Assembly: GCA_036785375.1 (NCBI GenBank)
Contig: JAWMAR010000010.1
Span: 4,092,001-4,156,000 of the forward strand
Direction: 5' to 3'
Origin: Leucoraja ocellata
Lineage: Eukaryota
Length of the DNA: 64,000 nt
The number at the start of each line of letters is the position of its first letter. Position 1 is the first letter of the stretch. The notes under the pieces were generated by a model. It was not told the origin of the DNA, did no database searches, and worked only from the letters and a program-made list of their open reading frames with translations. Made by a program: the position numbers and the translations under genes. Positions 39,031 through 40,779 of this stretch are shown here, in pieces.

Positions 39031-39550
39031 AATTCGCCATGGTTTAGTCTCCCAACGATGGTCGACCTGGAAAATGCTTGGTTTTCTTTTTCCACAAATG
39101 CTGCCTAACCCAATCTGTTTTTATGCCAAAAGATCACGAGTTTTCCAATTTGGAACATGCGTTGAATGTAAAATGGGGAGATTTTGGAACAGCTGTAGTT
39201 ATGGAATAATTTTTAATACATGGATTTATTAGAAAGATAATTTGAATTAATGTTTGTCTATGTCTCCCAATGTCATTTAAACATAAAATGTTCCTCTATT
39301 TATTAAGTTGCAAATGAAAAATGTCAGTTTTACGAATAGTTACGGTAAAAAAAAAGAAACATTGGGAAATGAAATGGAATGTTGGAAACTATATTTGTTC
39401 TGCTATTTTAAACAGTAGACAAAAGGTGCAGGAGTTGGCCATTCGGTCTTCGAGCCAGCACCGCCATTCAATGTGATCAAGGCTGATCTTCCCCAATCAG
39501 TACCCCGTTCCTGCCTTCTCCCCATATCCCCTGACTCCGCTATCTTAATT

Positions 39551-40717
39551 TTTAATTATAAAACAGTGTATCCCACTAATCCTTGAACAGAGTGGGAATT
39601 GAAATCGATGACTTAAAAGAGGGTTTACGTGAGGTTCAAATTTACATTTGCATTTATTTCATTAAAACATTGATTTAGCAACCTTGTGCATTTTCACTAT
39701 TAAAAGTAGACTACTATATGAATTAAAGCCTTCTCCTGTAAAAGTCACGAAGCAAACTCAGATATTGTTTTAATAGATTGCAAGTTGTAATTTATAATTG
39801 GTATATTTTTTATTTGTTTCCTATCGGACAGAGATACAATGTTAATCATTCGTTCTTCAGTGCCGATGACATTGTAAACGTAAACTCGTTTTAAAGATGC
39901 TGGAAACGGAACTGAGCGTCATTGTATAAACATTAATTTTAATGGATTATTATTGAATTCATTAAGGCAATGGTGCACACAGACAAACATTGAAACCTGT
40001 GCCAACTTATTTAATTACGAAGTATTAACATGTTCTTATAATTTATATGCTACATTTAGTTTCCAGAAGTTGTGGTACATAGCCTTTATTAATTCAGATA
40101 TTATATTGAGAGTTGTTTTTAATCCTTACCAATGCAATCTCACATGTTTTTAATCTGGTATGAATGTAATGTTCTTGTCGGCTGGTTTGCTTTTCGGAAT
40201 TTACTTGCAATTACTGTCGGCACACAAATGATCGGTATATTTTCGTGAGTGATGGGACAACAAAATACAGTTTAAAAAAAAGTGACATTTTAAGTGTGTT
40301 ATATGTCATTAAATAACAGAGCTACCATTTCAATCCCATCCACCCCCTTAGTTGGTTTCGTTCGATGGACGCATTTAAGGCCAAATTTCACAAACAAGAT
40401 TGTGATTGTTTATTTTTGTCTTCTCCCATATTATGTACGGGAGCCCGATATGGGAAAACCCGCTATCCTTCCATTTTCTGTGAGTTTGTCAGATAATCTC
40501 TGAACCATTTATAAAACAAAAATGCTTCCCTCTCCCTCCAAATCAAAAGTTTAGCCATGGGCACTCTCAGTGGCCCAAGCGAAACTTACCTAAATTATTT
40601 AATTTTAATTAAATCAATGCAAATGTAATTTTGAACGTCAGTCAAACCCTCTTTTGAACCATTGATTTGAATTCCCACTGTTCACTGATTAGTGGGATAC
40701 CTGTTCTATAATTCAAA
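39551..40717. repeat. Inverted repeat pair (arms about 39551-39667 and 40603-40717), each with a perfect octamer
   Basis: The reverse complement of arm 2 aligns to arm 1 at roughly 80%. ATTTGCAT is at 39646-39653 and ATGCAAAT at 40617-40624. Confidence 0.88.
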
Positions 40718-40779
40718 TAGTGGAGAGAATGTCGTTTCCAACATTGCACATCGTTTCACCAATTTCCATTTAGTTGGGT

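What the first reader, a model, noticed from the sequence alone, without database searches (positions are those of the whole stretch)
39360..40770. Inverted duplication carrying twin octamers in the J-Cmu intron: candidate Emu-like enhancer
Seen: arm 1 (core 39551-39667, homology extending to about 39360 across a CR1-tail insertion at 39411-39545) is the reverse complement of arm 2 (40603 to about 40770) at roughly 80%. Both keep a perfect octamer (39646-39653 and 40617-40624), an internal TCCCACT...AGTGGGA inverted pair (Ikaros/RBPJ-like TGGGA) and TTTGAA (TCF/LEF-like), in AT-rich, MAR-like DNA. Known: mammalian Emu lies in this intron and contains an octamer, and the mammalian IgH 3' regulatory region is quasi-palindromic. 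Inference: a palindromic intronic enhancer for a cluster-type IgH locus. The alternative is an old TIR element.
Basis: partly seen in the sequence, partly recalled or inferred. Interest (0 to 1): 0.8.

Follow-up and report, generated by a model that had tools for sequence, protein, structure and literature searches.

The report
Repair scar duplicates antibody intron octamer
The mirror-image repeat in the IgM antibody genes of this cartilaginous fish is real, but one arm is a 177-base backwards copy of nearby DNA lodged inside a dead jumping gene, likely a copying or repair scar; the original copy carries a B-cell-type binding word and might be part of an enhancer, which is untested.

Summary
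The inverted repeat is real (83% identity over ~180 bp, both octamers perfect) and lies in the J-Cmu intron of an intact IgM cluster. It is not a TIR/MITE. All genome hits lie in IgM clusters. Arm 2 (40593-40769) is a single 177-bp insertion inside a Penelope-like reverse-transcriptase remnant: in 9 of 12 other copies the flanks join directly (10-12 of 15 bases). The twin octamer is therefore one copying event inherited through cluster amplification. Across 40 clusters the arms vary like the rest of the intron (53/230 columns, 0.23 vs 0.245), whereas the promoter is more conserved (0.16, p=0.013). Octamer 2 is changed in 10 of 40; ten IgW-type clusters lack the arm. Left open for the enhancer idea: octamer 1 is intact in 40 of 40 (p~0.1), no IgM promoter examined has an octamer, every cluster keeps one Ets-IRF-like word, and the core arms are closer than the outer arms (p~0.08). 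No shark sequence or functional data were available. The scan noted such Penelope-held flank copies before in other cartilaginous-fish DNA. Verdict: a known kind of scar, with a weak enhancer candidate in arm 1.

The parts
35832..35877 (+). IgM leader exon; no perfect octamer in the 1 kb upstream
36037..36340 (+). VH exon, open frame, followed by a 23-spacer RSS
   Evidence: Pfam V-set
36751..36763 (+). D1 segment between 12- and 22-spacer RSSs
37062..37069 (+). D2 segment
37463..37510 (+). JH segment; the J-C intron follows
39352..39411 (+). Arm 1, outer part (inferred donor); deleted in 2 of 40 clusters
39412..39545 (.). Repeat tail (CR1-like by recall) inside arm 1, absent from arm 2, shared by all three cluster lineages
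39546..39678 (+). Arm 1 core (inferred donor of the copy); candidate enhancer core, untested
39595..39604 (+). GGAANNGAAA (Ets-IRF-composite-like, label recalled); in arm 1 of 22/40 and arm 2 of 18/40 clusters, never both, never neither
39640..39653 (-). Variant octamer overlapping the perfect octamer (39646-39653); perfect octamer intact in 40/40, tandem word in 39/40
40527..40592 (+). 5' piece of a Penelope-like RT remnant, left flank of the insertion
40593..40769 (-). Arm 2: 177-bp inverted copy of arm 1 inserted at one point of the Penelope-like remnant; 2-3 bp microhomology at each junction, no TSD
40617..40624 (+). Second octamer; intact in 30/40 clusters (3 ATGCGAAT, 7 ATGCATAT)
40770..41238 (+). 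3' piece of the Penelope-like RT remnant, in register with 40527-40592
41548..41844 (+). Cmu1 exon; CH2, CH3, CH4 with secretory tail and a membrane exon follow

Best explanation
Arm 2 is a 177-bp backwards copy of intron DNA from about 0.9 kb upstream, lodged at one point inside a dead Penelope-like retrotransposon fragment, likely by a polymerase template switch during insertion or repair, and the resulting palindrome is likely a neutral passenger of IgM cluster duplication. Shown: the insertion point, the in-register continuation of the retroelement, confinement to IgM clusters, presence in all three cluster lineages, and flank-like substitution rates. Inferred: the direction of copying (arm 1 donor), microhomology-mediated template switching, and the order of events (Penelope remnant, then the copy at the same time or later, then the CR1-like tail into arm 1, then three cluster lineages, then recent expansion). 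Neutrality is inferred from the absence of detectable constraint, not from function.
For: In 9 of 12 other Penelope-like copies from this genome the left flank matches (27-29/40), and the next 15 bases match window 40770-40784 at 10-12/15 but the inserted DNA at 2/15. Copy L090 aligns 40535-40592 to 1275-1332 and resumes at 40770 with 1333. Its ORF carries RT and GIY-YIG-like motifs (motif labels recalled). The RT piece gave 23,537 first-look candidates in the genome; the arms gave 81 and 78, about two per IgM cluster. All 29 other loci examined, and all 39 stretches, were IgM clusters. Variable columns over 40 clusters: arms 53/230 (0.23; composition-adjusted expectation 56.9), background 0.245, proximal promoter 23/141 (0.163, p=0.013); a halved rate over the arms is rejected at p=4e-6. 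Octamer 2 is changed in 10/40 by four changes on the tree. Invariant runs of 18 bp also occur inside the dead retroelement. Ten IgW-type clusters lack the arm and have no perfect octamer in their J-C introns. Germline templated insertions with microhomology are described in PMC8421209 (abstract and first part of section 10 read).
Against: Octamer 1 has no change in 40/40 (chance about 0.1) and lies in a 17-bp invariant run (0.8% of 17-mers). Ancestral arms differ at 10/115 in the core but 11/60 outside (Fisher p=0.085). If the copy is as old as the retroelement (second-position decay 9/82, interval 0.05-0.20), the core is more conserved than neutral (p=0.004 at 18% expected, 0.17 at 12%). 8- and 10-mers never hit in both arms exceed a shift null (0.49 vs 0.39); 6-mers and the per-cluster measure do not. 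The test has little power: tree length 0.445 with three deep lineages, and the CH1 exon itself shows no reduction (0.239). Microhomologies of 2-3 bp in AT-rich DNA arise easily by chance.
Confidence: 0.68

Rival explanations
1. Arm 1 is part of a real IgM intronic enhancer (octamer pair plus Ets-IRF-like and TGACGT words) that predates the scar; arm 2 is a redundant accidental copy, so sites are kept in either arm. Same origin as the best explanation, different function.
For: No perfect octamer in the 1 kb upstream of the leader in any of 40 clusters (one had only 237 bp held), in line with PMC2435157 (passage: shark IgH genes lack the upstream octamer). The catfish IgH enhancer core has two variant octamers, one of them ATGTAAAT (PMC1800861, passages); that variant overlaps octamer 1 in 39/40 clusters. 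Either-arm retention: octamer 40/40, GGAANNGAAA 40/40, TGACGT 39/40, the exception being L066, which has a broken CH1. Mammalian Emu lies in this intron (PMC9971809, PMC1800861, passages).
Against: No block-level constraint. No muE5-, muE2-, muE3- or muB-type word in either arm (consensus words recalled). One octamer per such intron is expected at p=0.34. Absent from ten IgW-type clusters. The motifs were picked after looking; the compensation test was mixed.
Confidence: 0.24
2. The palindrome itself is selected, as in the mammalian IgH 3' regulatory region (cruciform, looping or a pre-mRNA stem).
For: Both arms are kept in all 40 clusters at least in the core. The arms pair in the predicted fold of the transcript (no shuffle control, and expected for any inverted repeat). 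Non-conserved palindromic packaging DNA matters in the mouse 3'RR (PMC5449612, abstract).
Against: The whole intron, dead retroelements included, is kept in the clusters too. The arms are 83% alike and decaying, arm 1 took a 134-bp insertion, and 4 of 40 clusters lost 60-66 bp of one arm. The 3'RR is a >25-kb region around core enhancers downstream of the C genes.
Confidence: 0.05
3. The arms are terminal inverted repeats of an old DNA transposon or MITE, or two insertions of a short mobile element.
For: Two ~180-bp inverted arms around a 0.9-kb spacer have the size of such elements (recalled). The genome search skips very common words and scores only the best 40 candidates.
Against: A TIR element would leave its outer flanks contiguous; here the DNA on both sides of arm 2 alone is contiguous. 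No non-Ig hits for the arms or the spacer. No spacer frame longer than 89 codons. Only a chance-level 5-mer at the outer ends. Contig depth over the arms in four other organisms is not raised above the spacer.
Confidence: 0.03

Closest known systems
Germline templated insertions by microhomology-mediated template switching (MMB-TI; PMC8421209, abstract and first part of section 10 read)
   Same: An insertion copied in reverse from a nearby template, with short microhomology at the junctions and no target-site duplication.
   Different: Here it is ancient, fixed and multiplied 40-fold by cluster duplication; it sits inside a Penelope-like remnant and may date from that element's insertion.
Mammalian IgH intronic enhancer Emu (PMC9971809 and PMC1800861, passages)
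   Same: JH-Cmu intron, an octamer, AT-rich surroundings.
   Different: Emu has one octamer outside its core and a core of E-box and Ets sites (site list recalled). None of the recalled muE2/muE3/muE5/muB words is in the arms, no constraint is seen, and no activity is shown.
Catfish IgH enhancer Emu3' (PMC1800861, passages)
   Same: Octamer-based; its functional variant ATGTAAAT overlaps octamer 1 here.
   Different: It lies 3' of Cmu and has a muE5 site in its core; no muE5 word is in the arms.
Mammalian IgH 3' regulatory region quasi-palindrome (PMC5449612, abstract)
   Same: Inverted repeats in an IgH locus.
   Different: More than 25 kb, downstream of the C genes, built around core enhancers and kept as an architecture across mammals; this is a 1.4-kb intronic repeat from one insertion, absent from IgW.

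Membership tests
Templated (locally copied) inverted insertion | Pre-insertion site reconstructible: the flanks are contiguous without the insert | tested here: met
   9 of 12 Penelope-like copies join 40592 to 40770 in register; the other 3 lack the left flank
Templated (locally copied) inverted insertion | Template nearby, in opposite orientation | tested here: met
   Arm 1 ends 914 bp upstream; ancestral arms 88% alike, 21/175 differences
Templated (locally copied) inverted insertion | Microhomology at the junctions, no TSD | tested here: inconclusive
   3 bp on the left and 2-3 bp of a T run on the right; no TSD beyond 4-mers; short matches are near chance
TIR DNA transposon / MITE | Dispersed copies outside the locus | tested here: not met
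   All scored hits for arm 2, arm 1 and the spacer lie at IgM clusters; copies well below ~80% identity could be missed
TIR DNA transposon / MITE | Arms bound one inserted unit with a TSD; transposase remnant | tested here: not met
   Arm 2 alone is the insertion; no TSD; longest frame 89 codons
Emu-type IgH intronic enhancer | Position in the JH-Cmu intron | tested here: met
Emu-type IgH intronic enhancer | Octamer | tested here: met
   40/40 in arm 1; chance of one per intron 0.34
Emu-type IgH intronic enhancer | Clustered E-box and Ets (muA/muB) core sites | tested here: not met
   No muE2, muE3, muE5 or muB word in the arms; one weak GGAANNGAAA (consensus words recalled)
Emu-type IgH intronic enhancer | Sequence constraint above flanks | tested here: inconclusive
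   No block constraint among 40 clusters; weak hints; no distant species available
Emu-type IgH intronic enhancer | B-cell-specific enhancer activity, open chromatin, sterile transcript | not testable with these tools
   No chromatin or reporter data; transcripts from the intron were not examined
3'RR-type quasi-palindrome | Inverted repeats around core enhancers, architecture kept across species and IgH loci | tested here: not met
   Absent from ten IgW-type clusters; single-insertion origin; cross-order conservation not testable

The most novel reading that the evidence does not exclude
Arm 1 is the IgM intronic enhancer of cartilaginous fishes, supplying the octamer their VH promoters lack. 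A Penelope-associated templated insertion duplicated its core just before the IgM clusters multiplied, and the two copies now share the octamer, Ets-IRF-like and CRE-like sites between them: a repair scar turned into a redundant enhancer in every IgM cluster.
Probability: 0.15. Interest if true: 0.68.

Novelty: new member of a known kind. Interest (0 to 1): 0.27.

Why it matters
How dozens of separate IgH clusters are switched on, and held to one per B cell, is open in cartilaginous fishes, and their VH promoters lack the octamer (PMC2435157, passages). A defined enhancer would make that testable. My searches listed no paper describing one, but four primary papers on shark IgH were not held. 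This analysis removes the palindrome as an argument and narrows the candidate to about 130 bp of arm 1. The scar also gives a dated marker: it precedes the split of all 40 IgM clusters of this genome and is missing from IgW.

Tried and rejected
Homology beyond the arms, outward or inward: none above shuffles. Rfam scan of 37400-41900: 0 matches at E<=1. Pfam on the RT piece: no RT family hit, so 'Penelope-like' rests on copy number, nucleotide alignment and recalled motifs of the L090 ORF. Metagenome scan with CH1 for shark or ray IgM loci: 335 pattern matches, none confirmed. Sequencing runs: no RNA holder listed on record; transcripts from the intron, such as an I-mu-like spliced RNA, remain unexamined. 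Contigs of four other organisms cover all 30 bins of 39546-40790, but they are close relatives, only 40 of 154 differences were shown, and no listed contig has 31 bases on both sides of the left junction, so they gave neither a constraint test nor formal bridging. A profile search of the genome with a DNA alignment was not available, so old diverged copies were sought only with single sequences. A 7-bp repeat near the ends of the Penelope remnant (40482, 41238) is at chance level and not counted as a TSD. Arm-to-arm conversion: not needed; the 2-bp indel shared by lineage B arm 2 and all arm 1 copies fits the tree. The compensation test was mixed, and its null ignores shared mutability of homologous positions. 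Primary papers not held: PMC2590587, PMC454840, PMC3360817, PMC3839419; they or their supplements may describe the shark J-C intron. PMC2192082 and PMC3308330 gave nothing relevant. Left out of the 40-cluster set: C2034, cut by its contig end. About six near-identical pairs may be alleles or haplotigs. An earlier count gave lineage B as 19; the correct count is 18.

Full report
Locus. The window holds one IgM-type heavy-chain cluster of a cartilaginous fish: leader, V, two D and one J with recombination signals, CH1 to CH4 with a secretory tail and a membrane exon near 49.5 kb. All frames checked are open. The finding lies in the 4-kb J-CH1 intron.

Observation. The inverted repeat is real. 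Three ungapped pieces pair at 84%, 91% and 70%. The joint alignment scores 189 against at most 43 in 300 shuffles, and the arms match at 149 of 179 aligned bases. Both octamers are perfect. A 134-bp repeat tail splits arm 1 and is missing from arm 2. Homology does not extend further out or in.

Copy number. Arm 2 gave 81 first-look candidates (40 scored) and arm 1 gave 78 (40 scored). The 29 other loci inspected lay in IgM J-C introns, and all 39 longer stretches held V, J and CH1. The spacer hits the same places only. With the window this makes 40 clusters in three lineages (window alone, 21, 18), 91-93% alike between and about 98% within. Ten more distant VH loci with J and five or more C exons (IgW-type, label inferred) have neither the arm nor a perfect octamer in their J-C introns. 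The repeat is not a dispersed element, within the limits of a seeded search.

Origin. The DNA on each side of arm 2 translates as consecutive pieces of a reverse transcriptase, from a family with 23,537 candidates in the genome. I fetched 12 of its copies. One aligns to 40535-40592 and resumes at the very next base with 40770. In 9 of 12 the left flank matches at 27-29 of 40 bases, and the next 15 bases match 40770-40784 at 10-12 of 15 against 2 of 15 for the insert; the other three lack the left flank. Arm 2 is thus a 177-bp insertion at one point of a dead element whose intact relatives have RT and GIY-YIG-like motifs (Penelope-like; motifs recalled, no Pfam hit). Its template lies 914 bp upstream in opposite orientation. 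The junctions show 2-3 bp of microhomology and no target-site duplication. A TIR pair cannot give this layout. It fits a polymerase template switch of the kind described for germline templated insertions (PMC8421209, abstract and first part of section 10). Whether this happened while the element inserted or later is not resolved. The scan noted the same kind of scar before, in this genome (e1-9502587, seen before I examined the flanks) and in other cartilaginous fishes; I did not check those loci.

Order of events (inferred). The remnant differs from its family majority at 9 of 82 second codon positions, an upper guide to its decay. The ancestral arms differ at 21 of 175 sites. The ancestral repeat tail in arm 1 is 93% like its nearest copies, and cluster lineages differ by 7-8%. 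These fit: remnant, copy, tail insertion, cluster radiation.

Constraint. Over 40 clusters, 53 of 230 arm-core columns vary (0.23) against 833 of 3403 in the rest of the intron (0.245); the composition-adjusted expectation is 56.9. The proximal promoter, as a positive control, varies at 23 of 141 (p=0.013). CH1 does not differ from background (0.239), so power is limited. Octamer 2 is altered in 10 of 40 clusters through four changes. The TCCCACT/AGTGGGA pair is complete in arm 1 of only this cluster. Recalled muE2, muE3, muE5, muB, RBPJ and TCF words are absent from the arms, and one octamer is expected by chance in 34% of simulated introns.

What still favours an enhancer in arm 1. Octamer 1 is unchanged in 40 of 40 (chance about 0.1). 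It overlaps the variant ATGTAAAT, functional in the catfish enhancer (PMC1800861, passages), in 39 of 40. No cluster has a promoter octamer within 1 kb (one had 237 bp only), as reported for sharks (PMC2435157, passage). GGAANNGAAA is kept in exactly one arm in all 40 clusters and TGACGT in at least one arm in 39. The ancestral core differs at 10/115 and the outer part at 11/60 (p=0.085). If the copy is as old as the remnant the core would be constrained (p=0.004 at 18% expected), but not if the expectation is 12% (p=0.17). A test for compensation between arms was positive for 8- and 10-mers on one measure and negative on the other and for 6-mers. These are hints picked after looking, none decisive.

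Other species. Contigs from four other coded organisms cover the whole 39546-40790 stretch, about nine-tenths alike, with no excess depth on the arms. They are too close to test constraint. No distant IgM locus could be fetched, and transcripts from the intron were not examined.

Comparison. It shares position and an octamer with mammalian Emu (PMC9971809, PMC1800861, passages) but not the core sites. It differs from the 3'RR quasi-palindrome in size, place and origin (PMC5449612, abstract). It meets the tests for a locally templated inverted insertion and fails those for a TIR element. Searches listed no described IgH enhancer of cartilaginous fishes, but four primary papers were not held.

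Verdict. A real feature of a known kind: a templated scar that doubled an octamer-bearing stretch and was carried into every IgM cluster. The palindrome is probably neutral (0.68). A single enhancer in arm 1 remains possible (about 0.24) and is cheap to test. Interest 0.27.

Noticed in passing
L031-L069 and window, V-to-J distance: 20 of 40 IgM clusters are partly or fully germline-joined (V-J distance 20-731 bp against about 1.1-1.2 kb); all 40 V frames checked are open, and CH1 is broken in L066 and L069.
   Followed up: partly
window 35682-35831: The octamer-less VH promoter is the most conserved non-coding block among clusters (variable columns 0.16; a 20-bp invariant run at 35732-35751 around a TATA-like word), while lineage B has unrelated sequence upstream of about 35615. 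It is a better-supported regulatory target than the arms.
   Followed up: partly
window 39741-39800 and 40381-40430: The least variable 48-60-bp intron windows lie in the spacer, not in the arms (0.085 and 0.062 changes per site); not corrected for multiple windows.
   Followed up: no
window cluster (G000:C10): This cluster is a lone third lineage, 91-93% like the two expanded groups, on a large contig; it has lost TGACGT in arm 1.
   Followed up: partly
L070-L089: Ten IgW-type clusters share a J motif and a C-terminal exon about 40% like IgM CH4; only one perfect octamer occurs in the 200 kb fetched.
   Followed up: partly
L055-L059, L065, L066, arm 2: The octamer-2 variant ATGCATAT followed by GTAA resembles a POU-dimer (MORE-type) word; label recalled, untested.
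   Followed up: no
window 15500-15832 and 29819-30107: Two young inverted pairs (81-82 bp, 93-95%) elsewhere in the window, probably MITE- or fold-back-like; not examined.
   Followed up: no
window 33883 and 45321: Other perfect octamers 1.9 kb upstream of the leader and in the CH3-CH4 intron; conservation not tested.
   Followed up: no
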